This document shows positions 26,426 through 40,997 of a DNA stretch of 64,000 nt, piece by piece. Position numbers and translations under genes: made by a program. The notes beneath the pieces are model-generated. The model saw only the letters and a program-made list of their open reading frames with translations, was not told where the DNA came from and did no database searches. The stretch comes from an uncultured virus (IMG/VR IMGVR_UViG_3300023108_000018) (Duplodnaviria; Heunggongvirae; Uroviricota; Caudoviricetes), in the IMG/VR virus record IMGVR_UViG_3300023108_000018; one strand, given 5' to 3'. Within the stretch, counting starts at the first letter, position 1, and each line of letters starts with the position of its first letter.

Positions 26426-27125
26426 TGTACTTCGTCCTCCTGTCTGTTAATTTAACCTCGTCTCCTCTGATTACTATGGAACGTCTATCCATGTATCTTG
26501 CACTTTCATTTGGTGCATCTGCACCATGAGGTATTCTACCATCAAATAAAACTAAACGATTTGGTACAAATTCCACTTCTGCAATTTGATGGTTTTTAAT
26601 ATGTTCGTTTCTTCCTTGAAGACCCTGTTGTGGTGAATCATAAATTCTTAATGTACCACCCCATTTAGGGTTCCAAAATCTGTTATAATAATATAAAAAA
26701 GATAAGTTCCAATCATCATGATCATCACAATCTGAGTGTGTAGTTCCATGACATCCATGTGTTTGAGAATTTAAACCTGCATACTGAAATCTAACCCACT
26801 CAAATTCAAAATCTGTTTGAAGTTTTCTATTAAACCAAATCGGAACGACTGCATCTAAACGATCAATATCTCCTTCAAGATTGTCCCCACGAAGAAAACT
26901 TGCACCCCAAAAAGAATGCATGGGTAATCCTGTAGGATTGTCTCCACCGACTTGATTGGTTTTAGACCAAATTGATGTTCTAGTAAATAGGTTGTCTATG
27001 TGGTGATGAAGTTCATCACTTAAATAATTATCTATTACATAAACTTTATCTAAAGGCAACTCGCAAATTTTAAAAGGTTCGTCTAAGTAGACGACCTCTA
27101 ATTGATCATCATCCTGTTTGACCAT
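26382..27125 (-). CDS. 2OG-Fe(II) oxygenase (prolyl-hydroxylase-like)
   Basis: HSD, WGGTL, PNRLVLFDGRIPHGA...R; likely start MVKQ at 27125. Confidence 0.85.
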   Translation of the reverse strand: MVKQDDDQLEVVYLDEPFKICELPLDKVYVIDNYLSDELHHHIDNLFTRTSIWSKTNQVGGDNPTGLPMHSFWGASFLRGDNLEGDIDRLDAVVPIWFNRKLQTDFEFEWVRFQYAGLNSQTHGCHGTTHSDCDDHDDWNLSFLYYYNRFWNPKWGGTLRIYDSPQQGLQGRNEHIKNHQIAEVEFVPNRLVLFDGRIPHGADAPNESARYMDRRSIVIRGDEVKLTDRRTKYSADDRIPFIRYGHG

Positions 27126-27696
27126 TTCCCTGCGTTTCCATATAAGAGTCAGGAGCAAGTAACGGTGTTGGTATAACAACACAGTAGTCATCTACTTCCT
27201 TTAAGAAATCCTCTCTAGTGTTATTAATTTCATCTTCGATTTGTACATAACAACACCACACTGCATCAGCATATTCTGCAACTCTTCTGGCCGCTGACCT
27301 TCTAGGATGTGAAGACCCTTCTCTACCTGCAAAAACAACTTCAATCAAATCATCAAAACCGTATCTATGCACAACCTCTTTAATGAATTCATGACAAATA
27401 TTATTGATTTCTTGTTTGTGTTGTTGATTTAAATTAAAACCGATAGGTGGTTCAGAGTTTTCAATGTATAGTTCAATCGCATCCTTTTCTTCATCTGTTA
27501 AGGGAAGTGCATCTTGTTTTTCAAAATCTACACCATCTTTCCATTTTACAATCTTAATTTCTAAGTCTGCGTACACTAACATTTCATAATCAAAACCCAA
27601 GTCAGGTGCATCGCAATTGTCAAAACTGTATCTCAAACCATTAGGTTTAGTGATTTGTAGATTACCGTCTTCTGTAAATATTAATTCACTTTTCAT
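27109..27696 (-). CDS. hypothetical protein, possible tail-fibre assembly chaperone-like
   Basis: acidic 195 aa; YGFDD...YADAVW segment resembles phage fibre-assembly proteins (impression only). Confidence 0.45.
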   Translation of the reverse strand: MKSELIFTEDGNLQITKPNGLRYSFDNCDAPDLGFDYEMLVYADLEIKIVKWKDGVDFEKQDALPLTDEEKDAIELYIENSEPPIGFNLNQQHKQEINNICHEFIKEVVHRYGFDDLIEVVFAGREGSSHPRRSAARRVAEYADAVWCCYVQIEDEINNTREDFLKEVDDYCVVIPTPLLAPDSYMETQGNGQTG

Positions 27697-27716: not shown

Positions 27717-27745
27717 ATTATAACCTGTCATTGACTTTTTGTCAA
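27717..27745 (-). promoter_or_regulatory. consensus sigma70 promoter for the oxygenase block
   Basis: TTGACA-N17-TATAAT; the -35 box lies in the palindrome TTGAC-N5-GTCAA. Confidence 0.85.
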
Positions 27746-29310
27746 GCAAGTACTCTCCATTTTTTATAGATGTCTAAATTATTTATGTGGTCACAATCCA
27801 TACCTTCTACCCAAGGGCCTCCCCTAGTATAATGGATACCACTGAAATCCCACTTAACATCAGGGTCATCATATCCTTCTACAAATATGTATTTCTCAGG
27901 AATCTTACTGATCTTATCAGTCCATTCAAACTGATGGAGTTGTTTACCTGTCCAAGTGTTCACTGTTTCAGGTGTAAGTTTTTTACAATCTTCATGACCA
28001 TTATTAAATATCATCATACTAGACCATAATTTTTTTGGATAGTCTATGTTCACTTCTCCGTTAAACTTAGTTTCATCATGTTTATATTGAGGATACTGAA
28101 TACATGCAACTGCATCATCAGGATGTAGATAATAGAACATAGGTAATAAAGTTTTTTCAAAAATAAAATCATCATCTATGAAAATACTAAAACCCTCGTA
28201 ATTTTCTAAGTAAGGAATTAAAAACCTACTGTATGTAAACTCTGTTGATTGATTTGCATACTCTCTAGTATATTCAGGTATCTTTGATACATCTAATAGT
28301 TTTATTTCAGGTTCGTATCTTATTTCATTAATTAAATGTCCTGCACCTGTATCTTTAAAAATACTTTGTTCAATAGAAATTTTAGATACTTCTGCGAGGT
28401 TACCATGTCTACTATCGTAACCAATGTAAATGTTTAATGGTTTACCTTTACTTAAACTATGAACCTTTTTATTCCAATTGTAAATTTTTGGTCTGAACTC
28501 TTGCACATTCATCAGGTTACTGTTATATTCTAATGCACCCTGTATCAGTGTGAATGACACATTATAGTGTCCACCCATACCCATTCTTTGTCCAAGGTCT
28601 TCTCGTAGACTTAATTTGGTTTTCCAATACTCCATGAAATCTTCGAATCCAATGGGTTCTTGATCGATGGTGTCGTATGCATCTGTAATACACAATTCCA
28701 TATCAGGGTCACCCATCTCTTCAAAACAACCTGAACGTATAGAGCCTGGATGAATTCTTAGTTGATATCTACTATCTTTAACTAATTCTATTACTTGTCC
28801 TTGTATAGGTGCCCAAAGACCATCTTCTTGTATACTGTGTATTAACCAATGTGCCTTTGCACTATGGTAATACATTGAGTTTAAAGATTCTAAATCTCGT
28901 TTGGATAATGCATATTCTTGTTCATTGACATGATCTCTTAAATCAATATACTCACCATTTGTATCGACTGTATCCATACCTGCAATTTGATTTTCATGAT
29001 TGGGACGAGGTTTTTCAGTCCATCCTACTGGTAAGAATTTATGATAACATGGTGATTCGTTTTTTAGTCCATTGAACAAAGACCACTTTTCTCTTTTTCG
29101 TTCTTTCTCAAAATCTCCCCATTTAAAAATTTTTATAGGGGGTATAATTTCTTCAAAAACATATTTAAGAATTGCGTATGTTTCTTTATCCTTGTATTCT
29201 TGATCTAATTGAAGTGACCCAAAATGATAATAGGTATCTTTCCAGTCAGTTTTACCTGCTAGTTCTTCTTTTGCTTGGGATACGGATTCTATTTTAATAA
29301 AATTACTCAT
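27742..29310 (-). CDS. glycosyltransferase (GT-A, GT8/CDI-like C-terminal domain) with an extra N-terminal domain
   Basis: IYIGYDSR, STEFTYSRFLIPYL, IFIDDDF (DxD), YPKKLWSSMM, HYTRGGPW. Confidence 0.82.
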   Translation of the reverse strand: MSNFIKIESVSQAKEELAGKTDWKDTYYHFGSLQLDQEYKDKETYAILKYVFEEIIPPIKIFKWGDFEKERKREKWSLFNGLKNESPCYHKFLPVGWTEKPRPNHENQIAGMDTVDTNGEYIDLRDHVNEQEYALSKRDLESLNSMYYHSAKAHWLIHSIQEDGLWAPIQGQVIELVKDSRYQLRIHPGSIRSGCFEEMGDPDMELCITDAYDTIDQEPIGFEDFMEYWKTKLSLREDLGQRMGMGGHYNVSFTLIQGALEYNSNLMNVQEFRPKIYNWNKKVHSLSKGKPLNIYIGYDSRHGNLAEVSKISIEQSIFKDTGAGHLINEIRYEPEIKLLDVSKIPEYTREYANQSTEFTYSRFLIPYLENYEGFSIFIDDDFIFEKTLLPMFYYLHPDDAVACIQYPQYKHDETKFNGEVNIDYPKKLWSSMMIFNNGHEDCKKLTPETVNTWTGKQLHQFEWTDKISKIPEKYIFVEGYDDPDVKWDFSGIHYTRGGPWVEGMDCDHINNLDIYKKWRVLA

Positions 29311-29342
29311 AATATAAACTGTGATTTATTAGTATTTAGTTA

Positions 29343-30044
29343 CTATGTAATCGGTGTTGCTGGCCACTGTTGTGACAATACACCATCCCATCTTGCGACA
29401 GGAGTTCTACCTTGTCTAGCATACGTTGCAGGTTGTCTGTTCTGATATGTGAAAGGTGTTTGACCTTGTCTCGCATACGTACTAGGTTGTCTGTTTTGAT
29501 ATGTGAACGGTGTCTGCGAGTTCGAAGGATTTCTATATGTAAACGGCGACCTGTGATTATATGTAGAAGGTTGTCTTGCGTTTGCAATATAAGGATACGG
29601 TTGTTGTGCATCCCTAATGTTAGGTTCCTGTGCATTCTTAATAGTAGGTTGTTGTCCATTTCTAATGTTAGGTTCTTGTGCATTCCTAATATTAGGTTCT
29701 TGTGCATTTACTGGATTTCTATATGTAAATGGTGACCTATAGTTATATGTAAACGGTTGTCTTGCATTTGCACGATATGGAACCCTATATGTAAATGGCA
29801 CTCTATATGTAAAAGGTTGTCTCGCATTCGCAATATAAGGAACACGATATGTGAAAGGTGACTGATAAGTCACAGGTTGTTGTGCGTTAGCAGGGTACCT
29901 TGCACTGTATGTGAAAGGAGACTGATAAGTTACAGGCTGTTGAGCATTCGCAGGATATCTTGCGTTGTAAGTAAACGGTGCTTGGCTGTTGACCGTGGCA
30001 CGAGCCTGACCTTGCATCGATTGTCTGTGGAAACCTGTTGCCAT
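29343..30044 (-). CDS. Pro/Tyr/Gln-rich repeat protein A (zipper partner of 30063-31367)
   Basis: 26 Pro-terminated units of 6/8/10 aa (aa 24-215); GAGG RBS upstream. Confidence 0.85.
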   Translation of the reverse strand: MATGFHRQSMQGQARATVNSQAPFTYNARYPANAQQPVTYQSPFTYSARYPANAQQPVTYQSPFTYRVPYIANARQPFTYRVPFTYRVPYRANARQPFTYNYRSPFTYRNPVNAQEPNIRNAQEPNIRNGQQPTIKNAQEPNIRDAQQPYPYIANARQPSTYNHRSPFTYRNPSNSQTPFTYQNRQPSTYARQGQTPFTYQNRQPATYARQGRTPVARWDGVLSQQWPATPIT

Positions 30045-30062
30045 CTTACTTAATTCCTCTCA

Positions 30063-31367
30063 TTATTTCGTACTAATATTATGAACCATTAAACTATTTG
30101 CAAAGAAGTTATGATGTGGACTGTCTACACCAAAGTGATAAACCATCTCTTCATCTGCTTCTTCTATAGATTCAATAATTGACTCTGATAAATTTTGTTT
30201 TAAAATTGCATTGTTGATGTCTTTAATTGCATCACCGATCTGCAATTCTCCGTTGACTTCTTTCATGTCATCGGCATGTCCTAATTCTACTTCTTTATTC
30301 CAATCTTCTAAATTAATAACCTTCCATCCCTGATCTTCAACATAGAATGGATGACCACCTGTTACTTTTAACCACCCACCGTCTGTAAGTTGTAGTTTAT
30401 AAACTTTACACTCTCTTGGTTCCATGACATTTGATACACTTACTCTTTCCAGTTCGTTACTTTCTAGATTAAGTGAATACACCACATCACCCACTTGGAT
30501 GTTTTCTATAGGTGTCATTGAAGTGTCACCCATCCAAACTTGTGTTCCAGCAGCGAAACATCCTCCTCCACCGTAGAAGTAAACTGCTAAGAAACGGAAA
30601 GGATATGTATACGGTTGTTGCGAAGAACTAGGTTGTCTTGCGTTTGCAATATAAGGCACCCTATATGTAAACGGTGATCTAAATGCAACTGGTTGTCTTG
30701 CGTTAGCAATATAAGGTACTCGATATGTGAAAGGAGACCTAAATGCAACTGGTTGTCTTGCGTTTGCAGGATATCTAGCATTATACGTAAATGGTGTTTG
30801 ACCGTTTGCAGGATATCTAGCATTTGCAGGATATCTAGCATCATACGTAAATGGTGTTTGTCCGTTTCTTATATTAGGTTGTTGTGCATTTACAGGGTTT
30901 CTATATGTAAATGGAGACCTATGGTTATAGGTAAACGGTGATCTGTGTTGATACGTAAATGGTGACCTATGTTGATACGTAAATGGTGACCTATGTTGAT
31001 ACGTAAATGGTGATCGACCTGTTGCCTGATACGTGAAAGGTGTTTGTGCGTTCCTTATATTAGGTTCTTGTGCATTTACTGGATTCTGATATTCTGCAGG
31101 TTGTCTTGCGTTTGCAATGTAAGGTGTTTGTGCGTTTGCAATGTAAGGATAAGGTTGTTGTGCGTTAGCAATATAAGGCGTCTGACTGTTTGCAATGTAA
31201 GGATAAGGATTTTGAGTTGCTTCTTGACCTGATGCATTATTCCACCCTGTAGGTGTCTTAATATAAATCTGATCAACTGCTTTCCATGCTGTGGGAGTCT
31301 TTACCCATGCACCCCTAGTTGCATTCCAACCTGTAGGTGTTTTTACGCTTTGATTACCTGATGCCAT
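30063..31367 (-). CDS. repeat protein B: 3x (V/I)KTPTxW cap + Pro-repeat region + C-terminal Hint domain
   Basis: repeats at aa 55-246; GGGG|CFAAGT, TGGHPF and HNFFANSLMVHN Hint motifs. Confidence 0.88.
   Translation of the reverse strand: MASGNQSVKTPTGWNATRGAWVKTPTAWKAVDQIYIKTPTGWNNASGQEATQNPYPYIANSQTPYIANAQQPYPYIANAQTPYIANARQPAEYQNPVNAQEPNIRNAQTPFTYQATGRSPFTYQHRSPFTYQHRSPFTYQHRSPFTYNHRSPFTYRNPVNAQQPNIRNGQTPFTYDARYPANARYPANGQTPFTYNARYPANARQPVAFRSPFTYRVPYIANARQPVAFRSPFTYRVPYIANARQPSSSQQPYTYPFRFLAVYFYGGGGCFAAGTQVWMGDTSMTPIENIQVGDVVYSLNLESNELERVSVSNVMEPRECKVYKLQLTDGGWLKVTGGHPFYVEDQGWKVINLEDWNKEVELGHADDMKEVNGELQIGDAIKDINNAILKQNLSESIIESIEEADEEMVYHFGVDSPHHNFFANSLMVHNISTK
30946..31015. repeat. about three 24-nt tandem coding repeats (RSPFTYQH)
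   Basis: gttgatacgtaaatggtgacctat units. Confidence 0.85.
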
Positions 31368-31401
31368 TTACCTTTAATCCTCTAAAATATACTCCTATTT
31401 A

Positions 31402-33030
31402 TTAGGAGTATAAAATCCACAAATCACCAACTGCACCATCTGAAGAAGTTGGAGCAGAGGTTGATTGATACACATTCCTTGCAACACCACCACTGTTATT
31501 TGCGTAGTTTGTAGTAATTTGTGTAAATTCTACGTTTGATGATGTTGATACTGCCTGACCGATTGCAACTTCACCTGAACTGATTGAAACACCAGTTCCT
31601 GCAGTGATATGAGCTCTTACTTCAGCAGCACTTGGCCCTGTGTATGTAATTGTTCCACCACTGTATGCAAGTGAACCATCTCCACCAGCGTCAGTTACAG
31701 TAATTGCAGCTCTCGCTCTTGTATCAGTATAATACAAGTTGGATGACCCTTCTGAAACATCGTCTGTATCATGGTTTGACACATCTGAAACTGTTCCAGT
31801 TACATTACCAGTTAGGTTACCTTCGAATGTTCCTGCAACAAAAGTTTCTGAACCTACTGTCCATTTGTCATTTGTTTCGTCCCAAAGAAGTGTCTTAGCA
31901 GTAGAACCACCTCTAGTGACACTAATACCTGTATCTTCTGTAGGTGAACCTGAAGTGAAGTTACTGTTTAATGCAATGATATTATCTGCAAGGTTAATTG
32001 TTTCTGAGTTTACAGTTGTTGTAGTTCCTGAAACTGTTAAGTCACCTGAGACTGTTAGTGAATCATTAACTGCAACTACACCTGTTCCGTTTGCAGTAAG
32101 AACTAGGTTTGTATCTGCACTTCTTGACTCAATTGCATCTACATCAATTGAGTTTGAAAATGAGATTGCATTTCCATCTGATGAAGCAACGTTTGAACCT
32201 GCCTGTACTGAGATCGGCCCTTTTAATTGGATACTACCTGAACCTGTTGGGTCTAATTCAACGTCACCTGAACCTGATGTTTGGACACTAACATTTTGGT
32301 TCGCATCAGCAGAAACAACGATTGTTCCTGAACTATCTGATACTACTTGTTGACCGTTAACATATAATGACCCTGGCCCGACATACACATCTCTCCAAGT
32401 ATATGAAGATGAACCTAAGTCGTATGTGTTGTCTGCACTTGGTACGATATGACCTGTTACGTCTGAATCTGCAGTAAGTGTTATACCTGCGAATGAAGGT
32501 TTATCTGAAGTTCCAACTGCCTGACCGATACTAACTTCACCTGAACTGATTCCAACACCAGTTCCAGCAGTGATATGTGCCTGTACTTCTGATGCACTAG
32601 GCCCTGTGTAAGTGAGTACACCTGTACTGTTATCGTATGCAAGTGAACCATCTCCACCTGAATCTGTTACTGAAATCTTTCCTCTGATAGCAGCGTCAGT
32701 AATTGATAAATCAACTGCACCGTCTCCTGCATCATCGTAAGATGCAGTAATGTTAGTATGTGAACCGTTAGTTACTAACTGAGCACCAACGATATCTTGA
32801 ATTTCTTCTTCAGTTTTACCAGTTGATGAGATTGTGATAGTGTCGTTTGTATCATCATAAGTTACAGTTGTTGAACCTGAACCTTGAATGATACCACCAA
32901 TCTTATCTGCAATTGCTTCGTCTAAAGCAGTTCCTACTGCACTTGCAGTGATACTACCTGAACTATCAATGACTTCGGTTGTACCAACCGTAAGTCCGTT
33001 CTTGATTATGAAATTCTTTTCTCCTGCCAT
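31402..33030 (-). CDS. tail fibre protein
   Basis: G/S/T-rich; [18 protein letters not shown] shaft motif; internal duplicated TDxGGDGSLAY...HITAGTGV block; C-terminal SAPTSSDGAVGDLW. Confidence 0.8.
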   Translation of the reverse strand: MAGEKNFIIKNGLTVGTTEVIDSSGSITASAVGTALDEAIADKIGGIIQGSGSTTVTYDDTNDTITISSTGKTEEEIQDIVGAQLVTNGSHTNITASYDDAGDGAVDLSITDAAIRGKISVTDSGGDGSLAYDNSTGVLTYTGPSASEVQAHITAGTGVGISSGEVSIGQAVGTSDKPSFAGITLTADSDVTGHIVPSADNTYDLGSSSYTWRDVYVGPGSLYVNGQQVVSDSSGTIVVSADANQNVSVQTSGSGDVELDPTGSGSIQLKGPISVQAGSNVASSDGNAISFSNSIDVDAIESRSADTNLVLTANGTGVVAVNDSLTVSGDLTVSGTTTTVNSETINLADNIIALNSNFTSGSPTEDTGISVTRGGSTAKTLLWDETNDKWTVGSETFVAGTFEGNLTGNVTGTVSDVSNHDTDDVSEGSSNLYYTDTRARAAITVTDAGGDGSLAYSGGTITYTGPSAAEVRAHITAGTGVSISSGEVAIGQAVSTSSNVEFTQITTNYANNSGGVARNVYQSTSAPTSSDGAVGDLWILYS

Positions 33031-33263
33031 TAGATACTACCTCCATCAATTTGCACGTTTGCAAGTGTTTTTGATGCAGAACTATCGGCGAGATGCGTGT
33101 CTACTCTTGAAGTAGAAAAATACAAATTACTTGACCCTTCTGAAAGGTTGTCGGTGTCTAAGTCTGAGATTGCAGCTGCTTGTAATTTACCTGAACTGTT
33201 AATAATTTCCGTAGACCCAACTGTCAAACCGTATTCGATAACAAATGTGTTTTTAGTTGCCAT
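33030..33263 (-). CDS. small fibre-associated protein
   Basis: N-terminus paralogous to 31402-33030; DTDNLSEGSSNLYF; C-terminal IDGGSI. Confidence 0.7.
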   Translation of the reverse strand: MATKNTFVIEYGLTVGSTEIINSSGKLQAAAISDLDTDNLSEGSSNLYFSTSRVDTHLADSSASKTLANVQIDGGSI

Positions 33264-33328
33264 TTTTCGTGTGTCCTATGTCAAAATGTGGGTTATTATA
33301 CTTTTATTTATGAAAGTATGACGTTCAA

Positions 33329-34165
33329 TCAAACATCTATTTCAATTTTTTTATATTTAAATACAGTTGAATTGGTTGAAGCAGGTGAAATTTTTAGTTT
33401 CACATTACCACTTTCAATTGCAACTGAGAATGTAGCGAGTTCCGTAGTTCCTCCTGCAAGTACGGTACCAAACTGAGAGAAGAATGCATTACTTCCATCA
33501 TGTAATACATGTATCTCAGTCATCTGATATTCAGATGCAGTAGAATCGGATATCGATATAGTATATTTAACAGATCGATACGTTGAAGCGGAGAAAGAAT
33601 CTAAATCGGTTTCTGATGTCGAGGTAGTTGTTGCAGTTCCTGAAGTTAATCCTGTTCCTGCATCCTGAAATGATAGTGTACCACTACCATTGGTTGTGAG
33701 AACTTGACCATTTGTTCCATCTGTTGTTGGATATGCAATGTTTGAACCAGTGATACTATTCGTTACATTAAGTGTCGTTGCAGTCAAATCTCCTACTTCT
33801 AAGGCTGCTTTTGCGTATCCTGTTCCTGAAGTGTTGACTGTTGTAGTTGGTTCAACCTCTAAACCATCGAATAGTTTCCAAGTAGAATCTGATGCATCTC
33901 TGAATAAACCTGTGTATTCACTTGCACCTCCATCTGATAAACCATCATCATAATTACCATACAAACCAATGTCAAGTGTGTCAGAACTCGTATTTGCATT
34001 TGCGAGTTCAAGCATTGAGTCTGCGACTGATGTAGTTGTTGAGTTAACTGTAATTGTTGTTCCATTTACAGTGAGGTTGCCTGCAATCGTAGTGTTACCA
34101 TCGACAATCAAATCACCATTTGTAGAAAGCCCAATATCCGATAATAATTTTTGTTTTGTCGCCAT
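33329..34165 (-). CDS. tail fibre protein
   Basis: GNLTVNGTT shaft; DGTNGQVLTTNGSG; C-terminal YRSVKY...HDG domain. Confidence 0.75.
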   Translation of the reverse strand: MATKQKLLSDIGLSTNGDLIVDGNTTIAGNLTVNGTTITVNSTTTSVADSMLELANANTSSDTLDIGLYGNYDDGLSDGGASEYTGLFRDASDSTWKLFDGLEVEPTTTVNTSGTGYAKAALEVGDLTATTLNVTNSITGSNIAYPTTDGTNGQVLTTNGSGTLSFQDAGTGLTSGTATTTSTSETDLDSFSASTYRSVKYTISISDSTASEYQMTEIHVLHDGSNAFFSQFGTVLAGGTTELATFSVAIESGNVKLKISPASTNSTVFKYKKIEIDV

Positions 34166-34170
34166 AGTAC

Positions 34171-34178
34171 TATTTATA
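34171..34178 (-). promoter_or_regulatory. T4-type late promoter
   Basis: TATAAATA 5 nt before ATG. Confidence 0.75.
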
Positions 34179-34196
34179 CTTTTTTAAAAGTACAGA

Positions 34197-34226
34197 TAAA
34201 AAGAAGGGGACGTAGTGTCCCCCTCT
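34197..34226 (-). terminator. intrinsic terminator
   Basis: GGGGAC-N5-GTCCCC stem followed by a T-tract on the - strand. Confidence 0.75.
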
Positions 34227-34245
34227 AAAGATTGCTTACTGTTAA

Positions 34246-34656
34246 TTAAGCGTCAACTACAATCCTATCGAATTGGATAACTGTAGAAGATGAAGATGCT
34301 GGTGTTACCAACAATCTTACATCACTTCCGTCGATATCTGCATCGAAAGTTGCAAGTGAACTAGACTTCAGTGTACCATATTGAGTCATTGTTACACTAC
34401 TACCATCGTGGACAAGCATAACTTCTGTTGAATGGAAGTCACTACCTTGTGACATAGCGACGATATAACGTGCAGCTCTGAAATCTGTCTTTGCAAAGGT
34501 GTCGAGACTAAACTCAGTTGTAGAGGTTCTTGTTGAATTACCTCTCTTTGAGTTTTTATCTCTTGTTTTCTTTGCAGTAACGATTTCATCATTTGACGTA
34601 TCGTATGAGAATACACGAATTAACTCAGCAATTTTAAAAGCATTTGTCTTAGCCAT
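34246..34656 (-). CDS. fibre-associated structural protein
   Basis: C-terminal FRAARY...HSTEVMLVHDG...QYG domain shared with neighbours. Confidence 0.7.
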   Translation of the reverse strand: MAKTNAFKIAELIRVFSYDTSNDEIVTAKKTRDKNSKRGNSTRTSTTEFSLDTFAKTDFRAARYIVAMSQGSDFHSTEVMLVHDGSSVTMTQYGTLKSSSLATFDADIDGSDVRLLVTPASSSSTVIQFDRIVVDA

Positions 34657-34669
34657 TTCTTATATCCTC

Positions 34670-35494
34670 CTATGACATCCTAATTTGGAATGTATCCACT
34701 GTTGTATTAGTGTTAACAGGTGTAATGAGAAGTCTCATATTACCTGAATTAACGTCTGAACTCAATGAGAACAATGATGCGTTTGAATATGTATCACCGT
34801 ATTGTACGAAGTACGCATTCGACCCATCATTGATCAATAACACTTCTGCGGCATGTGTTCCTGCACTCGCATGAGTGGCAGTAATCACATACTTCACAGC
34901 CTTGTTTGCAACTGCATTAGATGATAAAACTTGATCAGATGTTGTTGCAGTGAAAGTATTTGCAGTAAAGAAACCTTGAACTAAGTTCGCAGCCTCTGTG
35001 ATTGCAACTACTTCTACAACGTCACCTGAAATGGCGTTCTCAGTAAGTGTAATAACTGTACTACTTGTTGCAGTATAGTCAGAACCTGAGACTAACTTAA
35101 CACCGTTAATATACACTTGTTCTGTTCCTGAGGAATATGAAAGTGTATTACTATTATCATCTGCACCTGTAATTGAAGTACCAGTTGATGTAATAGAGTA
35201 GGTAAAAGTTACAACCCCTGAAGACGGTTGAGCGGCGAAACTTATTGTTCCACTACCATCTGTCTGTAGGACTTGACCTGAAGTACCATCTGAAGTTGGG
35301 AAAGAGTACGCATCGTTAACAGTAAGAGTTGCAGGATTTGACCCTACTTCAACAATTGAAGCAGAACCATCATCCTTCTCAGTATAGACTCTACCGTGAT
35401 AGGTATTAATACCTATCTCACCTAATGATAAATCACTAGTTGATGGTACAGAATTCTGAGTTGAACTCCTCTTGAATTGAATTACTGTTGCCAT
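34670..35494 (-). CDS. tail fibre protein
   Basis: MATVIQFKRS...LGEIGIN N-terminus; VYINGVKL domain; shared C-terminal domain. Confidence 0.75.
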   Translation of the reverse strand: MATVIQFKRSSTQNSVPSTSDLSLGEIGINTYHGRVYTEKDDGSASIVEVGSNPATLTVNDAYSFPTSDGTSGQVLQTDGSGTISFAAQPSSGVVTFTYSITSTGTSITGADDNSNTLSYSSGTEQVYINGVKLVSGSDYTATSSTVITLTENAISGDVVEVVAITEAANLVQGFFTANTFTATTSDQVLSSNAVANKAVKYVITATHASAGTHAAEVLLINDGSNAYFVQYGDTYSNASLFSLSSDVNSGNMRLLITPVNTNTTVDTFQIRMS

Positions 35495-35523
35495 TTGCTA
35501 CTCCTGTTATAGACTAAGTGTTA

Positions 35524-37095
35524 TTAAAATGTTCCACCGTCGATAGCAGTAATGCTTACAGCTCCTGAACTCACTGTAAAGTTATTTGAATCGTAAGAAG
35601 CAATACCTTTTGCAGATGTTGTTGCATCGTCGATAGCAACATCACCTGAAGTTACAGTGAAATATGAACCTGAGAATGAAGCAATACCTTTATTTGAGTC
35701 TGTTGCATCCTCACCTGCGATAGTGATAGCACCATCTGCATTAGTGATGTCAACACCTTCTCCAGCTGTTAAAGCTGCAAGTTCCATGTCTCCGTTAGAG
35801 CCATTACCAATCATCAATTGACCTGCTGTTGGAGCAGCGCCGTCTAATGATGTGATTGAACCTGAAAGTGCAAGACCTGATGCCTCTAAACCACCAAATA
35901 CTGCGTTACCGACTGAACCTGAGAATACTGATGAAGAGTCAGTTGCATCTTGGATGAACTTAAACTTACCATCTGAATCGTCCATACCAAAGAAACCAAC
36001 TTTAGCAGCTGAACCATTGTGCCACTTAAATTTGATACCTCTGTCTAGGTTGTCATCTGATGCATCATCACCGATTTCAAATACAGGGTCTGCAACTGAA
36101 GTAGTTGTAGAGTTTACAGTTGTAGTTGTACCATTAACAGTTAAGTTTCCTGAAACTGTTAAGTTACCTGAAGCAGCGATATTAGTTGATGTAATATCGT
36201 CTGATGTCAGTGTACCGTCTACTTGAACATTGTTAAATTGAACGTTGTCAGATGTACCAACTGACTGACCAATTGCAAATGTAACTGCTTGGTTAGCGGC
36301 AGATGTTGTTACACCTGTTCCACCTGTGAAAGTGATTGATTGTGAATCTAAATCGATTGCACCAGTACCACTGTCAGCAGCGACATCTAAGTCTTGAGCT
36401 GTTACTTGAGAGTCAACGTATGCTTTAACTGATTGTTGTGAAGGAACTTTGACATCTGAATCAGAAGACATGTCATCTTCGTCAACAAAGAAGTCAATCA
36501 TACCGAGTTCAACAGCGCTGTTTGCGATTGTTACAGCACCTGCTGAATCCATTGTTACATCACCACTGATTGCTACGTTATCAAATGAATCTGAACCGTC
36601 ATGGACAAGAATGTGTCCTGATGCAGGGCTAGAAATATCTGAGTCTGTTGCGCCAGCAAGTGTTGAAGTAGTAGATAGGAATGAAAGTGAACCACTTCCG
36701 TCTGTTCCTAGTACTTGGTTTGCACTACCATCAGCTGAAGGTAATGTAAACGTTACATTAGAAGCTACTGAATCAGGAGCTTTAAGTGCTACATAGTTTA
36801 CACCATTGTCAGAATCTTCTAATAACTGAACCTCACCACCAGCAGTCGAACCATTACCAACTTTAAAGTTAGCAGGTGTTGCAGAAGAACCTGCAAGAAT
36901 GTCTGTGTAGTATTTACCACCAATCGCATGGATTAATGGGGTTGAGTTATCGGAATCAACTGATTCGATAAACAGTTTAGCACCAGCACCTGAATTACTT
37001 CTGTCCTGAATATACGCTAATTCACCTTCCGATAAATCTGATACTGTAGGCGCAGAAGAACCAGTACTTCTTTTAATTTGAATTACTGTTGCCAT
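35524..37095 (-). CDS. tail fibre protein
   Basis: [10 protein letters not shown]...EGELAY N-terminus; [24 protein letters not shown] repeats; C-terminal IDGGTF. Confidence 0.8.
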
Positions 37096-37143
37096 TTTTT
37101 TCTCCTAAAAAATTTTATTTTTTATAAAAGTAATTTACGTAAA

Positions 37144-37220
37144 TTTCTCTTCACTATCCGAGAAAGATCATTATATATACAGTCCTCTCACTATGAGGGT
37201 CGTGTCTCACTGAATGACAC
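37144..37220 (-). promoter_or_regulatory. structured 5' leader: three hairpins with AGUGA loops
   Basis: stems TTTCTC/GAGAAA, CCTC/GAGG and GTGTC/GACAC, each enclosing TCACT on the + strand. Confidence 0.6.
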
Positions 37221-37235
37221 CTTGATTTGTAATAG

Positions 37236-37243
37236 TATTTATA
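37236..37243 (-). promoter_or_regulatory. T4-type late promoter
   Basis: TATAAATA upstream of the structured leader. Confidence 0.75.
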
Positions 37244-37246
37244 AAA

Positions 37247-37495
37247 CTAGAATGTTCCACCATCTATTGATGTGGTTGTTTCCCACTTATCAGTAGTTGC
37301 GTTGTATGAGAGAAGTCCATCATCTGTTTCAGATGCATTAACATCTGATAACTCTTGAATTGATTTAGTTGCAAGATTAACACTTGTTGATGAGTTACCG
37401 ATTGCAACTTGTTTTGCACGTATATTTGTTGCACCTGCAATCCTAGCACCAACTGAACCTGTCGATCTATTTAATGTCCCTTTAATGTTTGCCAT
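37247..37495 (-). CDS. small fibre adaptor-like protein
   Basis: LSDV...DGLLSYNATTDKW motif; C-terminal IDGGTF. Confidence 0.7.
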   Translation of the reverse strand: MANIKGTLNRSTGSVGARIAGATNIRAKQVAIGNSSTSVNLATKSIQELSDVNASETDDGLLSYNATTDKWETTTSIDGGTF

Positions 37496-37497
37496 AA

Positions 37498-37830
37498 TTA
37501 ACTCCTCGTTACTCCTGGCGTTACAATCGCTTGTCCTTCTATAACTCTAGTTGTATTTGAACCACTAGTTATATTTAGATCATAAACATATCTTCCAGCA
37601 TTCAATGCAGCAGTTTGAGTGTCATCAAGTGATAATGTAACCTGTCCAGTTGCAGCTGCAATACTAGTTCCAAATGTCGCAGAGACAGTAGAAGAACTAT
37701 ATGTTTTTCTTATCTGTGCGGCCGCAGTATATCCATTTAAGTCTAAGATATCACCTGCTGAGTCAGTCACATCAACAGTAATACTGAAGTCTGTTCCTTG
37801 ATCTATGTATAGGTTTGCAATTATAGCCAT
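37498..37830 (-). CDS. virion structural protein (Ig-like adaptor)
   Basis: NLYIDQGTDF, AQIRK, GRYVYDL, RVIEG..VTPGVT motifs common in T4-like marine phages. Confidence 0.75.
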   Translation of the reverse strand: MAIIANLYIDQGTDFSITVDVTDSAGDILDLNGYTAAAQIRKTYSSSTVSATFGTSIAAATGQVTLSLDDTQTAALNAGRYVYDLNITSGSNTTRVIEGQAIVTPGVTRS

Positions 37831-37835
37831 ATAAC

Positions 37836-37843
37836 TATTTATA
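37836..37843 (-). promoter_or_regulatory. T4-type late promoter
   Basis: TATAAATA 5 nt before ATG. Confidence 0.75.
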
Positions 37844-38555
37844 CCTGAGTGTTACTTGGGTTCTTAGAGAACCTTGCAGTTGGTACAGATTGATGTATTT
37901 TTTCTACAGTACCTGTTTTATTTACGTACACTTCACTTAATTTTCTAAGTGTACCATTATCATTTACATATACTCCTTTCACTTTTGCAATCGGGCCTAC
38001 AGTTCTAGTAGTTGAATATGGTGCTTGATATGTAAATGGTGACCTCACCGTGTAAGGGAACTGATAGGTTACTTGATATATAAACGGTGATTGTGCATTC
38101 GCAATATATGGTGATTGTGCATTTGCAGTGACCCTATATGTTGACGGTGATCTATGTTGATACGTAAACGGATTCCTTGCGTTTGCAGGATTGGGTTGTT
38201 GTGCATTCCTAATATTAGGTTCTTGTGCATTTGCAATATAAGGACTTGGATTTTGTGCCTGATATGTATTAGGTTGTCTTGCGTTTCCAGTCGCTCTATA
38301 AATTAAAGGTTGTCTTGCATTTCTAATATTAGGTTCTTGTGCAGATGTAGGGTTTCTATATGTAAACGGAGACCTATGGTTATAGGTGAAAGGACTCTGT
38401 TTAGTTGCACGATATGTAAATGGTGACCTTGCAATATACGGATAAGGTGTTTGACCAATAAGAGGTTGTCTTGCCTGATAAGTCGTTTGACCTTGCGCTT
38501 GATAAGTTGTAGGTTGTTGTGCAATATATGGTATTTGATAGTATCCTGTTGCCAT
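37839..38555 (-). CDS. Pro/Tyr/Gln-rich repeat protein C (zipper partner of 38557-39717)
   Basis: Pro-delimited even-length units at aa 10-179; two C-terminal VYVN motifs. Confidence 0.85.
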   Translation of the reverse strand: MATGYYQIPYIAQQPTTYQAQGQTTYQARQPLIGQTPYPYIARSPFTYRATKQSPFTYNHRSPFTYRNPTSAQEPNIRNARQPLIYRATGNARQPNTYQAQNPSPYIANAQEPNIRNAQQPNPANARNPFTYQHRSPSTYRVTANAQSPYIANAQSPFIYQVTYQFPYTVRSPFTYQAPYSTTRTVGPIAKVKGVYVNDNGTLRKLSEVYVNKTGTVEKIHQSVPTARFSKNPSNTQV

Positions 38556-38556
38556 T

Positions 38557-39717
38557 TTATATTCCTAATGCCTGTCCATAAGTTGCGTTTAATGATATCA
38601 TACCATGACTATATGTTGATGTATATACATTATTACTTGAATCCACACCCTTAACTGTGAAACTAACACCTTGTGCTTGTGTCCATGTAGTACCATTAGG
38701 GTTTGGGCCGTTTGGTGTTACACATGCCTTCCACAGGAATTGTCTTGCACCACTAGTTGGAACACTATAGTAAGTACCTGAACTATATCCAGCGTTAGTT
38801 GGTAATGGCCCTGAACTATAAGAGTAACAATAACTTGAACTACAGTCTTTACCACTACATGCTTGACTTGATACATCATATTTTACTGTAAATGTGGAAC
38901 TGGTTGTCAATAGACCTTGATATAAAATGTAATCAGAATAAACAGTCGCCTGATATTGATTTGTATAACCAAACCACAATGCCTTAATAGAACTTTGGGC
39001 AGTTGCATTTGAGAACTCCATTGAACACCCTACCTCAGGTGGAGGGTTTGTGGATGCTCTTGATTGCGTAGTATACCAGTACCCAGCTGAACCAGTACCA
39101 GGCCCCCAAACTTGTTCTAGTGGGTCATAGATATATGCAGCTGGTTGTCTTGCATTATAAGACGATCTTGCGTTTGCAATGTATGGATAAGGTGTTCTTC
39201 CTATAAATGGAGACTGATATGAATATGGTGTTTGACCAATTGTAGGCACTGGTTGTTGTGCGTTACTAGGTGATTGATATGACTGTTGTGCATTTCTAAT
39301 CACTGGTTGTTGTGCATTTGTAGGATTTCTATATGTAAACGGTGACCTATAGTTGTACGTAAACGGTGATTGTTTATTTGCTGGTACCTGATATGTAAAT
39401 GGTGTCTGCGAATTTGCAATATAAGGATTCGCTTGTTGTGCCGAATATGTAAATGGTGATCTGTGTTGATAAGTAAACGGAGACCTAACAGTGTAATTGA
39501 AAGGTTGTTGTGCGTTTCTTATAAACGGAGATTGTTGAACAGCAGGTGTCCTATATGTTACAGGTTGTCTGTTGTTGTATGTTAGGGGTTGTCTTGCCTG
39601 TGCAGGTGTTCTACCAGTTGCCTGTTTGGTTTCAGGTGATTGTGCGTTAACTACTGCTTGCCCTTGATAGGGTTGTTGGAAAGTCGTCCCTGTGTTTATA
39701 TAGATTTCATCAGCCAT
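38557..39717 (-). CDS. repeat protein D: Pro-repeat region + C-terminal Cys/Tyr/Ser-rich domain
   Basis: repeats at aa 17-192; about 190-aa non-repetitive C-terminal domain with 5 Cys. Confidence 0.85.
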   Translation of the reverse strand: MADEIYINTGTTFQQPYQGQAVVNAQSPETKQATGRTPAQARQPLTYNNRQPVTYRTPAVQQSPFIRNAQQPFNYTVRSPFTYQHRSPFTYSAQQANPYIANSQTPFTYQVPANKQSPFTYNYRSPFTYRNPTNAQQPVIRNAQQSYQSPSNAQQPVPTIGQTPYSYQSPFIGRTPYPYIANARSSYNARQPAAYIYDPLEQVWGPGTGSAGYWYTTQSRASTNPPPEVGCSMEFSNATAQSSIKALWFGYTNQYQATVYSDYILYQGLLTTSSTFTVKYDVSSQACSGKDCSSSYCYSYSSGPLPTNAGYSSGTYYSVPTSGARQFLWKACVTPNGPNPNGTTWTQAQGVSFTVKGVDSSNNVYTSTYSHGMISLNATYGQALGI

Positions 39718-39718
39718 A

Positions 39719-40798
39719 TCATATCACAAACCATAAGTGTCCATTAGACGTACTTCCTACACTTGACGGTGCAGAAGATACTGTCTCGTAATCTAACACT
39801 ACATTATCACTATCCGTTTTAATTCCGTTAGAAGTGTTGACACTCATAGTTGTCCCTGTAAGGTCTAGACCATCTCCACCTGTTACTGAATTCGAACCTG
39901 TAAACGATATAGTGTTATTCGCATCATCATAAGATACAGTGATATTAGTATGTGTACCAGCAGCAATTGCAGTTGCAACTGCATCTTGTGCCTGTTCGTC
40001 AGTGTAGTTTGCAGGTGCATCAGCGGATTCCCAATTCGTTGTTGAAGAGTTGTAGATTAACATCTGACCATTATTAGGAGATGATGCATCTACGTTACCC
40101 AACGATGCTAAATTGTGATTTGTTATACTGGATACGGTTCCTGTTACATTACCGACAACATTACCCTGTACATCACCTTTAACTAATGCACCACTTGGTA
40201 AGTTGATATGATTTTGGAAATATACTTCACCATCAAATTCGATAGGTGCAGAAGTAGTTAAGAGTGTTGTCTTAGTTGCACCGTCACCATTGAAGATTAA
40301 TCCATTGTCGTTTGTATTATAAATTGTATTAGCGGCAGTTTCAGAAAAGTAACCTACAGATGCACTTCCTTGTCCTGTAAATCCTAAGTAAGAACCAGTA
40401 AATGAATAAATTACAATCTTATCTGAGTTTGCAGCTGCTGAAACTAGGTCTATTCTATTATATGTTCCATCACCTTGAACATTACCTAATGAATAGTCAT
40501 CACCCTCAAATAGGTGAACACCATTCTTAAAAACTTGTATTCTGTTTGCAACAAATTTTAGAGTATATCCAAAGTTATCTACACCAGTAAATCTTGTATT
40601 ACCGTTAGTTCCATCTGAACCAGTAAAGATATACTCTTGTAAGAAGAAAGACTTGTCTTCAAGACTGTTTAATGCATCGATAATATTACTTTTTTCAGTT
40701 GTGCGTAATCCTGATATCGCACCGACATCATTTGCAAGATCGTTGTACTGTCTTCTAAAGTCTTCTATCGTACTGTGATTGTCAACTGTCCTAGCCAC
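39719..40798 (-). CDS. short tail fibre / fibre-like protein
   Basis: TIEDFRRQYN N-terminus; QVFKNG domain; C-terminal SAPSSVGSTSNGHLWFVI. Confidence 0.75.
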   Translation of the reverse strand: MARTVDNHSTIEDFRRQYNDLANDVGAISGLRTTEKSNIIDALNSLEDKSFFLQEYIFTGSDGTNGNTRFTGVDNFGYTLKFVANRIQVFKNGVHLFEGDDYSLGNVQGDGTYNRIDLVSAAANSDKIVIYSFTGSYLGFTGQGSASVGYFSETAANTIYNTNDNGLIFNGDGATKTTLLTTSAPIEFDGEVYFQNHINLPSGALVKGDVQGNVVGNVTGTVSSITNHNLASLGNVDASSPNNGQMLIYNSSTTNWESADAPANYTDEQAQDAVATAIAAGTHTNITVSYDDANNTISFTGSNSVTGGDGLDLTGTTMSVNTSNGIKTDSDNVVLDYETVSSAPSSVGSTSNGHLWFVI

Positions 40799-40997
40799 TT
40801 ACTTTCTCCATCAATTGTTTTAACATCTCTTTCATTTCAGACATGTCTTCTTTAAGTGTATTTATCTCTTCTGTTTGCATTTTAAATCTTTGTCTTCTCA
40901 TTTTCTGCAACTTCCACGCTTCTTTATCTGTGGAAACGATTGCAGTAGTGTCTTCGTCTCTTTCTAAGTAAGAATGTCCGTCTACTCTAATACCCAT
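40791..40997 (-). CDS. small conserved coiled-coil protein
   Basis: LERD..TTAIV...EINTLKEDMSEMKEML; typical neighbour of the VrlC-like gene. Confidence 0.7.
   Translation of the reverse strand: MGIRVDGHSYLERDEDTTAIVSTDKEAWKLQKMRRQRFKMQTEEINTLKEDMSEMKEMLKQLMEKVSG

What the first reader, a model, noticed from the sequence alone, without database searches (positions are those of the whole stretch)
29400..39670. A shared pairing codebook, including a self-complementary peptide 'palindrome' in all four proteins
Seen: the same pairings recur in both gene pairs. FTYRNP faces x(N/S)(A/S)QxP, FTY(Q/N)(H/Y)RSP faces xIRNAQxP, and 10-mer xPYIAN..P faces 10-mer (F/x)TY..P. All four proteins contain the block FTYN(H/Y)RSP-FTYRNP-x(N/S)AQxP-xIRNxxx (8-6-6-8), which under this code is its own complement, like a DNA palindrome. 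In each pair it aligns with the partner's copy. Inference: this may be the ancestral homodimeric seed from which heterodimers diverged, and it may be a programmable peptide-pairing alphabet useful for protein design.
Basis: partly seen in the sequence, partly recalled or inferred. Interest (0 to 1): 0.8.

Follow-up and report, generated by a model that had tools for sequence, protein, structure and literature searches.

The report
Pairing code of mirror-matched fibre proteins
Two neighbouring gene pairs of an uncultured marine phage encode proline-punctuated repeat proteins that match unit for unit when one partner is read backwards, following a simple pairing code that dozens of related phages keep; the "peptide palindrome" is real but is a by-product of that code, not its ancestral seed.

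Summary
Observation confirmed. Four repeat proteins (A 233 aa, B 434 aa, C 238 aa, D 386 aa) sit in the tail-fibre island of an uncultured marine T4-like myophage. Read antiparallel and without gaps, 27 of A's 28 arm prolines face a proline of B, and 17 of C's 25 face one of D (0 of 2000 shuffles reach either). In 29 non-redundant pairs, a Thr-Tyr ("TY") unit faces a NAQ/YIAN/NIR unit in 807 of 866 matched 6-, 8- and 10-residue unit pairs, where about 431 are expected. Tyr faces Ala/Gly, Arg faces Ile, and all 1962 Pro-Pro spacings are even.

The 28-residue block is in all four proteins and faces its partner's copy. It is not universal: 7 of 29 pairs have it and 10 lack even its 12-residue core. 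Such local dyads follow from a binary code.

Natural single-chain fusions of D and C exist. The best reading is therefore an antiparallel, in-register two-chain (or fold-back) beta-type fibre shaft. The unit order acts as a barcode for partner and register.

The structure is inferred. AlphaFold2 gave no model of the arms and the complex predictor was unavailable. This scan has already found the family on other genomes. I found no description in print.

The parts
29343..30044 (-). Gene A (233 aa), the short chain of pair 1. Repeat arm about aa 24-215 (29400-29975). C-terminal motif RWDGxLSQQWPATP is conserved in relatives.
29670..29753 (-). 28-residue self-complementary block in A (FTYNYRSP-FTYRNP-VNAQEP-NIRNAQEP)
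30063..31367 (-). Gene B (434 aa), the long chain of pair 1. N-terminal KTPxGW x3 motif region (31206-31367), repeat arm aa 55-256 (30600-31205), Gly4, then a Hint domain.
30078..30560 (-). Hint / intein-like domain of B (aa 270-430). It starts GGGG|C, contains TGGH and ends HN followed by Ile. Present in 7 of the 16 B-type chains aligned.
   Evidence: (PF14890, 45.1 bits, cut-off 35.8)
30852..30935 (-). 28-residue block in B (FTYNHRSP-FTYRNP-VNAQQP-NIRNGQTP). It faces A's copy.
37839..38555 (-). Gene C (238 aa), the short chain of pair 2. Repeat arm aa 10-179 (38019-38528). C-terminal AKVKGVYVNDxGTLRK...EKIHQ motifs (37842-38018).
38307..38390 (-). 28-residue block in C (FTYNHRSP-FTYRNP-TSAQEP-NIRNARQP)
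38557..39717 (-). Gene D (386 aa), the long chain of pair 2. N-terminal MADEIYINTG motif, repeat arm aa 17-192 (39142-39669), C-terminal all-beta domain aa 199-386 (38560-39123).
39280..39363 (-). 28-residue block in D (FTYNYRSP-FTYRNP-TNAQQP-VIRNAQQS). It faces C's copy. Its last unit lacks the closing Pro.
31402..37830 (-). Tail-fibre-like genes between the two pairs (542, 278, 136, 274 and 523 aa, and a 110-aa LtfC-like protein). They place the pairs in a fibre module.

Best explanation
Each gene pair makes one thin fibre shaft from two chains that lie antiparallel and in register, residue for residue.

Architecture:
- The long chain (B or D) carries an N-terminal anchor motif, a repeat arm and a variable C-terminal domain at the far end.
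- The short chain (A or C) starts at the far end and runs back. It ends in an anchor motif next to the long chain's N-terminus.

The code within the arms:
- Pro faces Pro.
- Between Pro pairs, an aromatic 'TY' unit (xTYxxP, xTYxxRxP, xTYxxxGxxP) of one chain faces a 'small/amide' unit (xNAQxP, YIANxxxP or NIRNxxxP, xPYIANxxxP) of the other.
- At residue level, Tyr lies over Ala/Gly, Arg over Ile, Thr over Gln/Arg and Asn over Asn.
- Sub-types co-vary: His with Arg, Asn with Val, Val with Ala.

The aperiodic order of 6-, 8- and 10-residue units works as a barcode. It fixes both the partner (A/B against C/D) and the register.

A TY unit followed by its complement must face the same two units in the partner. 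The 28-residue 'palindrome' is such a local dyad, shared as a module by all four proteins.

Shown here: the mirror register, the unit code, its conservation through matched length changes, and the existence of fused single-chain forms.

Inferred:
- The chains touch.
- The conformation is a two-stranded antiparallel beta-ribbon with all Pro on the outer, non-hydrogen-bonded edge. This follows from the strictly even spacing.
- The A/B shaft is roughly 70 nm long, at about 3.3 A per residue (textbook beta-strand rise).

The number of heterodimers per fibre is unknown.
For: Window: 27 of 28 (A/B) and 17 of 25 (C/D) prolines coincide in gapless antiparallel alignment, and 0 of 2000 shuffles reach this. 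Parallel, non-cognate and self combinations score 12-17. No DNA palindrome explains the mirror.

Family:
- 235 related stretches were found in viral contigs and 79 loci were kept.
- 68 of the 79 loci hold two adjacent same-strand repeat ORFs of 190-739 aa.
- All 49 distinct pairs beat every one of 200 unit-order shuffles, with z 7.2-13.7. One example has 70 of 73 prolines matched.
- In 29 non-redundant pairs the Pro-centred local alignment is gapless over 137-532 columns.
- Partner repeat spans correlate at r = 0.93, and Pro-Pro spacings are 1962 even to 0 odd.
- The cognate is the best partner for 27 of 29 chains. The matched-Pro fraction is 0.88 for cognates against 0.56 for non-cognates.

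Code:
- TY faces non-TY in 293 of 335, 395 of 409 and 119 of 122 unit pairs, where 166, 204 and 61 are expected.
- Facing residues include Y:A/G, R:I (375 of 395) and G:Y (115 of 119).
- Co-varying positions reach mutual information (MI) of 1.19, 0.86 and 0.53 bits, against at most 0.10 in shuffles.
- Co-variation sits on odd positions, while even positions are nearly invariant. This is the two-residue periodicity expected of strands.

Topology:
- 11 relatives are single chains with D's N-terminus, two arms, a non-repeat centre and C's C-terminus. In 7 of these 11 the arms mirror each other above all 200 shuffles.
- AlphaFold2 on one of them gives strands only at residues 4-9 and 447-480 (pLDDT 65-75). 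This puts the two termini in one small sheet.
- Long chains of other pairs carry roughly 150-aa non-repeat C-terminal domains.

The D family also forms pairs: 10 distinct pairs, all above their shuffles.
Against: - There is no structural or biochemical evidence. AlphaFold2 left both arms at pLDDT about 32 and the complex predictor was unavailable.
- 'Facing' is an alignment relation, not a contact. A constant register offset cannot be excluded.
- The C/D match is weaker: 17 of 25 Pro, and 10 of 14 unit pairs obey the rule.
- 4 of 11 fused forms do not exceed shuffles in the gapless measure.
- One sub-family (L115-L119) fits my TY classifier poorly, at 2-5 of 6-13 units.
- Mutual-information values are inflated by unit duplication and shared ancestry.
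- 38 of 335 six-residue pairs are non:non.
- Stoichiometry is unknown. Phage fibres are usually trimers, and prolines on both outer edges would hinder a hydrogen-bonded six-stranded tube.
Confidence: 0.7

Rival explanations
1. The palindromic 28-mer is the ancestral homodimeric seed from which the heterodimers diverged.
For: All four window proteins carry it, with 22-24 of 28 residues identical. It lies on a Pro:Pro dyad facing the partner's copy. Four-unit dyads are modestly enriched across the family: 32 against 18.1 +/- 4.3.
Against: - The 28-mer faces itself in only 7 of 29 non-redundant pairs, and in 5, 3 and 2 copies in three of them.
- Its 12-residue core is absent from 10 of 29 pairs.
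- Two-unit dyads are not enriched: 122 against 128 +/- 9.
- The whole proteins have no self-antiparallel match.
- Fused hairpin forms give another route to a split pair.
Confidence: 0.1
2. The heterodimer is only the repeating element of a larger bundle. One candidate is three A/B pairs forming a six-stranded fold-back needle like the tip of T4 gp37, with one face of each ribbon buried.
For: - Phage fibres are as a rule trimeric (general knowledge).
- In T4 gp37 the chain runs out and back (D10 is residues 811-881 plus 1010-1026), and a Gly in a strand packs on a Phe of another subunit (passages read in PMC6957217).
- Here one face (even positions) is almost invariant and the other co-varies.
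- The near end carries three copies of a hairpin-like motif. B has three KTPxGW copies. D has one and C has two of the YxNxxG type.
Against: - There is no sequence similarity to any solved chain.
- There are no HxH iron sites in the arms.
- Prolines on both outer edges argue against inter-ribbon hydrogen bonding.
- Nothing here measures stoichiometry.
Confidence: 0.25
3. The two chains do not touch each other. Each binds with opposite polarity along a third component, such as another fibre protein or a host polymer, and the mirror reflects that scaffold.
For: Each pair follows a fibre gene (the 542-aa and 359-aa ORFs). Contact between A and B is not shown.
Against: - Facing residues co-vary by size and type: Y:A/G, H:R, N:V, V:A.
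- Partners change length together without gaps.
- Fused forms link the two arms in one chain.
- No neighbouring protein shows a matching Pro barcode.
Confidence: 0.04
4. The arms are disordered Pro-rich low-complexity linkers, and the apparent mirror is a by-product of shared short repeats.
For: AlphaFold2 gives very low confidence for the arms. Composition is biased towards Q, N, P, Y, T and R.
Against: - 0 of 2000 unit-order shuffles reach the observed match.
- All 49 pairs exceed their shuffles.
- Parallel alignments score much lower.
- There are zero odd Pro spacings among 1962.
- The cognate is the best partner in 27 of 29 cases.
Confidence: 0.02

Closest known systems
Needle (domains D10-D11) of the T4 long-tail-fibre tip protein gp37
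   Same: It is a phage fibre element in which the chain runs to the tip and folds back, giving long antiparallel strands. A Gly in a strand packs against an aromatic residue of another strand (G921-F970). These points come from passages read in PMC6957217. The fused D-C relatives have the same out-and-back topology.
   Different: - gp37 is a homotrimer held by seven His-coordinated iron ions, and one chain supplies both directions.
- Here two different chains (or two arms) pair.
- Here there are no HxH motifs, a strict Pro punctuation with even spacing, and a unit-level complement code.
- Aligned lengths here reach 532 residues.
- There is no sequence similarity.
Leucine-zipper / coiled-coil heterodimer codes (recalled from my own knowledge)
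   Same: It works alike: a short-period sequence code readable from the primary structure sets partner choice and orientation of two long chains. Orthogonal pairs coexist.
   Different: Coiled coils are alpha-helical with a 7-residue period and a hydrophobic core. The present arms have a 2-residue period, Pro boundaries, variable unit length (6, 8 or 10) and a polar/aromatic make-up. They are not members of that family.
Streptococcal antigen I/II stalk (A-region helix wound with P-region polyproline helix). The lead came from earlier scan note e1-5903225; the structure is recalled, not read here.
   Same: It is a fold-back stalk in which two distant repeat regions of complementary kind pair antiparallel into a long thin rod that presents a distal domain.
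   Different: It pairs an alpha-helix with a polyproline II (PPII) helix within one chain of a bacterial adhesin. There is no even-spacing Pro rule, no two-gene form and no similarity in sequence.
Hint / bacterial intein-like domains (for the C-terminus of B only)
   Same: The Pfam Intein_splicing hit is above its cut-off. The domain has an N-terminal Cys after Gly4, a TGGH block and a terminal His-Asn.
   Different: The residue after His-Asn is Ile, not Cys/Ser/Thr, so classical splicing is not expected. The domain is optional, present in 7 of 16 aligned B-type chains. The others end a few residues after the Gly run.
Single-layer beta-sheet rods and polar zippers (OspA, SasG, Perutz's Gln/Asn zippers; recalled)
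   Same: These are elongated beta structures without a conventional hydrophobic core, stabilised by cross-strand side-chain pairs.
   Different: They are single chains or homopolymers. None has a two-protein mirror code or a proline barcode.

Membership tests
Mirror-coded Pro-punctuated fibre pairs (the family defined by this scan's comparative data) | Two adjacent same-strand genes, or one fused gene, encoding Pro-punctuated repeat arms | tested here: met
   Window pairs B-A and D-C. 68 of 79 related loci hold such pairs. There are 11 fused forms.
Mirror-coded Pro-punctuated fibre pairs (the family defined by this scan's comparative data) | Gapless antiparallel coincidence of prolines far above unit-order shuffles | tested here: met
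   A/B 27 of 28 and C/D 17 of 25, with 0 of 2000 shuffles reaching either.
Mirror-coded Pro-punctuated fibre pairs (the family defined by this scan's comparative data) | TY-type unit faces NAQ/YIAN/NIR-type unit of equal length | tested here: met
   24 of 26 (B/A) and 10 of 14 (D/C) unit pairs. Family-wide, 807 of 866.
Two-stranded antiparallel beta-ribbon (structural class) | Two-residue periodicity along both chains | tested here: met
   1962 even and 0 odd Pro-Pro spacings. Co-variation is confined to odd positions, and even positions are near-invariant.
Two-stranded antiparallel beta-ribbon (structural class) | Direct evidence of strand conformation and cross-strand hydrogen bonding | tested here: inconclusive
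   AlphaFold2 of a fused relative left the arms at pLDDT about 32.
T4 gp37-type needle | Sequence similarity to the solved gp37 fragment or any solved fibre | tested here: not met
   phmmer against PDB sequences gave only a chance hit for A (E 0.27) and none for D.
T4 gp37-type needle | His-x-His iron-binding sites along the shaft | tested here: not met
   There is no HxH in the arms of A, B, C or D (sequences). The motif definition is recalled; the iron sites are described in PMC6957217.
T4 gp37-type needle | Homotrimer | not testable with these tools
   Stoichiometry cannot be read from sequence.
Collagen-like triple helix | Gly at every third residue | tested here: not met
   Units are xTYxxP, xNAQxP and the like, with no G-X-Y period.
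Hint / intein (C-terminus of B) | Profile match above the curated cut-off, with N-terminal Cys and C-terminal His-Asn | tested here: met
   PF14890 E 1.2e-11, 45.1 bits against a 35.8 cut-off. GGGG|C...TGGH...VHN is seen in the sequence.
Hint / intein (C-terminus of B) | Nucleophile (Cys/Ser/Thr) after the terminal Asn, needed for splicing | tested here: not met
   The next residue is Ile (HN-ISTK). This suggests a cleaving domain rather than a splicing one. Activity was not tested.
Curli / CsgA-like amyloid repeats | Match to curlin repeat profiles | tested here: not met
   No such Pfam hit for A-D. The curli operon of pelagimyophages lies elsewhere in the genome (passages of PMC7029224).

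The most novel reading that the evidence does not exclude
These phages use a natural, sequence-readable pairing code for two-stranded antiparallel protein 'duplexes'. Complementarity is binary (aromatic TY unit against small/amide NAQ unit) with sub-type matches. A length barcode of 6-, 8- and 10-residue units between prolines sets partner and register over up to about 530 residues. The code lets one virion carry orthogonal shafts (A/B and C/D). It works equally in two chains or in one fold-back chain, and it could be transplanted to design orthogonal beta zippers. Self-complementary words such as the 28-mer would then behave like DNA palindromes, pairing with themselves.
Probability: 0.4. Interest if true: 0.9.

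Novelty: categorically new. Interest (0 to 1): 0.78.

Why it matters
If the inferred pairing is physical, this would be the first natural beta-type counterpart of the coiled-coil code. It would be a rule set readable from sequence that says which chain pairs with which, in which direction and in which register, over hundreds of residues.

It would explain how abundant marine myophages build long, thin, length-variable host-recognition fibres from two genes. It would also explain why those genes must change in step.

It would give protein designers a tested alphabet with natural examples of orthogonal pairs. The specific 'palindrome' offers a small, synthesisable test object.

Tried and rejected
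- DNA-level explanation: inverted repeats between the paired genes are only 15-21 nt long. Rejected.
- Self-complementarity of single proteins: background values for A-D. No fully self-complementary single ORF in the A/B-type loci.
- AlphaFold2 of a natural fused relative (L104, 11-row alignment A5): mean pLDDT 36.7, with no usable model of the arms.
- D's C-terminal domain: AlphaFold2 gave pLDDT 65.2 and 12 strands. Foldseek against the PDB gave nothing at E <= 0.001 and TM at most 0.30. VIA-align wide gave a best Z of 5.5 to fimbrial subunits, within the noise range stated by the tool. The fold is unassigned.
- Known families: no Pfam family for C or D. A has only a sub-threshold Cementoin hit, and PHROGs gave nothing for the arms.
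- The protein atlas gave only scores of 0.81 or less.
- GenBank phage records: no match for the region or for B(1-270), C or D. BLAST's low-complexity filter was on, which may hide repeat matches.
- Literature: searches for fibre/antiparallel/heterodimer/proline terms and for five motif strings found no description. The pelagimyophage paper PMC7029224 (passages read) describes the host-recognition island but not these proteins.
- Searches for the papers on aromatic-glycine cross-strand pairs and on edge-strand negative design did not return the originals. Those ideas are recalled only.

Full report
CONTEXT. The window comes from an uncultured marine T4-like myophage.
- Its tail sheath is 48% identical to those of Pelagibacter phages Mosig and HTVC008M.
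- The nearest record held is an IMG/VR contig, G001.
- Gene order is baseplate wedge genes, a 2363-aa DUF4815 protein, a fibre island, neck genes, terminase, sheath, portal and capsid.
- This matches the 'host recognition cluster' described for pelagimyophages (passages read in PMC7029224).
- Four repeat proteins lie in that island, all on the - strand: D (38557-39717) directly followed by C (37839-38555), and B (30063-31367) followed 18 bases later by A (29343-30044).

- Cutting the proteins after each Pro gives units of almost only even length.
- The block FTYN[HY]RSP-FTYRNP-xxAQxP-xIRNxxxx occurs once in each protein. The copies share 22-24 of 28 residues and 65-71 of 84 bases. Codons differ at many identical residues, so the copies are related but not recent copies of one another.
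- When A is written N to C over B written C to N, without any gap, 27 of the 28 prolines of A's arm face a proline of B. Permuting B's units gives mean 13.4 and max 20, and 0 of 2000 permutations reach 27.
- C over D gives 17, against mean 8.8 and max 15, again 0 of 2000.
- Parallel alignments, non-cognate combinations (A/D, C/B, A/C, B/D) and self-alignments give 12-17.
- The genes share no DNA inverted repeat longer than 21 nt. The mirror exists only at protein level.
- In these alignments each 28-mer faces the partner's 28-mer, centred on the Pro of FTYRNP.

THE CODEBOOK GENERALISES.
- A search of viral contigs with A found 235 related stretches, of which 79 loci were kept.
- 68 of the 79 loci hold two adjacent same-strand repeat ORFs of 190-739 aa.
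- In the other 11 loci the match starts within 1,433 bases of the start of the DNA held, so a partner may be cut off. I did not examine these further.
- All 49 distinct pairs exceed every one of 200 unit-order shuffles, with z 7.2-13.7. One example has 70 of 73 prolines matched. Parallel alignment is always lower.
- I added the window's two pairs and removed near-duplicates (over 85% identity of the second chain). This left 29 pairs. In every one a Pro-centred local alignment is gapless, over 137-532 columns.
- Repeat spans of partners correlate at r = 0.93. All 1962 Pro-Pro spacings in the aligned regions are even.
- The cognate chain is the best partner for 27 of 29 chains. The matched-Pro fraction is 0.88 for cognates against 0.56 for 812 non-cognate combinations.

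UNIT AND RESIDUE PAIRINGS.
- The aligned regions yield 892 matched unit pairs: 335 of six residues, 409 of eight, 122 of ten and 26 longer.
- Units that begin x-Thr-Tyr/Phe face units that do not in 293 of 335, 395 of 409 and 119 of 122 cases. Random pairing within a length class would give 166, 204 and 61.
- There is one pairing it did not list: YIANxxxP with xTYxxR[SQ]P or xTYxARYP (144 + 77).
- Residue by residue, Tyr faces Ala or Gly, Arg faces Ile (375 of 395 eight-residue pairs), Thr faces Gln or Arg, and Gly faces Tyr in ten-residue units (115 of 119).
- Variable positions co-vary. These are Asn:Val and Val:Ala at position 5 of six-residue units (1.19 bits), His:Arg against Asn/Ala:Ala at position 5 (0.86 bits), and Ser:Asn against Gln/Tyr:Tyr at position 7 (0.53 bits) of eight-residue units. 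Shuffles give at most 0.10 bits.
- Co-variation is confined to odd positions, both facing and two residues along. Even positions are nearly invariant.
- This two-residue alternation, with the strictly even Pro spacing, is what strands would give. A three-residue polyproline II (PPII) period would not give it. These information values are inflated by unit duplication and common descent, so I use the contrast between positions rather than the absolute values.

THE PALINDROME IS A COROLLARY OF THE CODE.
- Under a binary code, any unit followed by its complement must face the same two units in the partner.
- Across the 29 pairs the full 28-mer faces itself in 7 pairs, with 5, 3 and 2 copies in three of them.
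- The 12-residue core xTYRxP-xNAQxP faces itself in 19 pairs. 10 pairs have no such core.
- Counted by length and type class, two-unit dyads are as frequent as in order-shuffled arrays (122 against 128 +/- 9). Four-unit dyads are modestly enriched (32 against 18.1 +/- 4.3, max 34), and so are six-unit dyads (7 against 2.7 +/- 1.6).
- The block is therefore a shared, somewhat favoured module. It is not a universal or demonstrably ancestral seed.

TOPOLOGY.
- A search with D found 32 loci. 10 distinct D-C type pairs again exceed their shuffles.
- 11 loci instead hold one ORF of 443-531 aa. It has D's N-terminus (MADEIYIN...), one arm, a non-repeat centre, a second arm and C's C-terminus (...AKVKGVYVNDxGTLRK...EKIHQ).
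- In 7 of these 11 the two arms mirror each other above all 200 shuffles. In 4 (L102, L107, L108, L117) they do not, in the gapless measure. L104 obeys the unit code in 12 of 14 matched units. The L115-L119 sub-family fits my classifier poorly.
- The split pair thus corresponds to a fold-back chain cut at its tip.
- In the B family the long chain ends in a Hint domain (7 of 16 aligned), in a few residues after a Gly run (9 of 16), or in a roughly 150-aa non-repeat domain.
- D ends in an all-beta domain: pLDDT 65.2, with no convincing fold match.
- A variable domain at one end and conserved motifs at the other end fit a fibre with a distal binding tip and a proximal anchor. That assignment is inference.
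- AlphaFold2 on fused L104 gave no model of the arms (pLDDT about 32). Its only strands are residues 4-9 and 447-480, at pLDDT 65-75. A strand assignment needs a partner, so the model puts the two termini in one small sheet.

MECHANISM. I conclude, at about 0.7, that the arms pair antiparallel and in register, and that the unit order is a barcode for partner and register. Three further steps are inferred:
- The pair forms a two-stranded beta-ribbon with prolines on the outer edges.
- Tyr over Ala/Gly acts as a large-over-small fit. Aromatic-glycine cross-strand pairs and proline as edge protection are recalled from the literature. My searches did not retrieve those papers.
- The shaft is roughly 70 nm long for 210 columns.

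How many heterodimers form one fibre is open.

COMPARISON WITH WHAT IS KNOWN.
- No solved chain resembles A or D in sequence.
- Homologues are unnamed metagenomic proteins. 118 scored E <= 1e-10. Among 1.84 billion cluster representatives, 157 scored E <= 0.001.
- No GenBank phage record matched.
- The literature searches found no description.
- The nearest known structure by design is the fold-back needle of T4 gp37 (passages of PMC6957217). It is a homotrimer with iron sites and no such code.

EARLIER NOTES OF THIS SCAN. The same family has been reported on other genomes, including fused forms. I treated those notes as leads and re-derived every count above on this window and on my own locus sets.

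Noticed in passing
window 24841-25542, 26382-27191 and 27742-29310 (- strand): Directly downstream of gene A lie two 2OG-Fe(II) oxygenase genes (PF13759 and PF13640, the superfamily that includes prolyl hydroxylases). There is also a 522-aa protein with a DDD motif that matches phrog_28018. They might modify the Pro/Asn-rich arms, but nothing here shows that.
   Followed up: partly
window 30078-30560 (B aa 270-430); alignment A2: B's Hint domain follows a Gly4 run and ends His-Asn-Ile. Only 7 of 16 aligned B-type chains have it. The rest stop a few residues after the Gly run, so the mature ends may be alike. In the antiparallel model the cleavage site lies next to A's N-terminus.
   Followed up: partly
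L096, L102-L104, L107, L108, L115-L119 (viral contigs): Single-gene fusions of the D and C types (443-531 aa), with two mirror arms around a non-repeat centre of roughly 100 aa.
   Followed up: yes
window 31206-31367 (B N-terminus), 39670-39717 (D N-terminus), 37842-38018 (C C-terminus): The presumed near end of each shaft carries three copies of a short hairpin-like motif. B has three KTPxGW copies. D has one copy and C has two of the Y(I/V)Nxx G type. This could imitate a trimeric attachment. Speculative.
   Followed up: no
window 29336-29707 (-) and 29412-29735 (+): Long alternative-frame ORFs overlap gene A. They are repeat artefacts: their translations are Arg/Leu/Cys-rich and unrelated to the family.
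   Followed up: no
window 31402-33030 and 39719-40798 (- strand): Each repeat pair is preceded by a fibre-like gene. The two share motifs such as TNIT(V/A)SYDD and a C-terminal G(H/D)LW(F/I). This suggests two parallel fibre modules.
   Followed up: no
window 40997-48088 (- strand): A 2363-aa protein (phrog_358 over its full length, DUF4815) borders the fibre island, like the VrlC gene that bounds the host recognition cluster in pelagimyophages (PMC7029224).
   Followed up: partly
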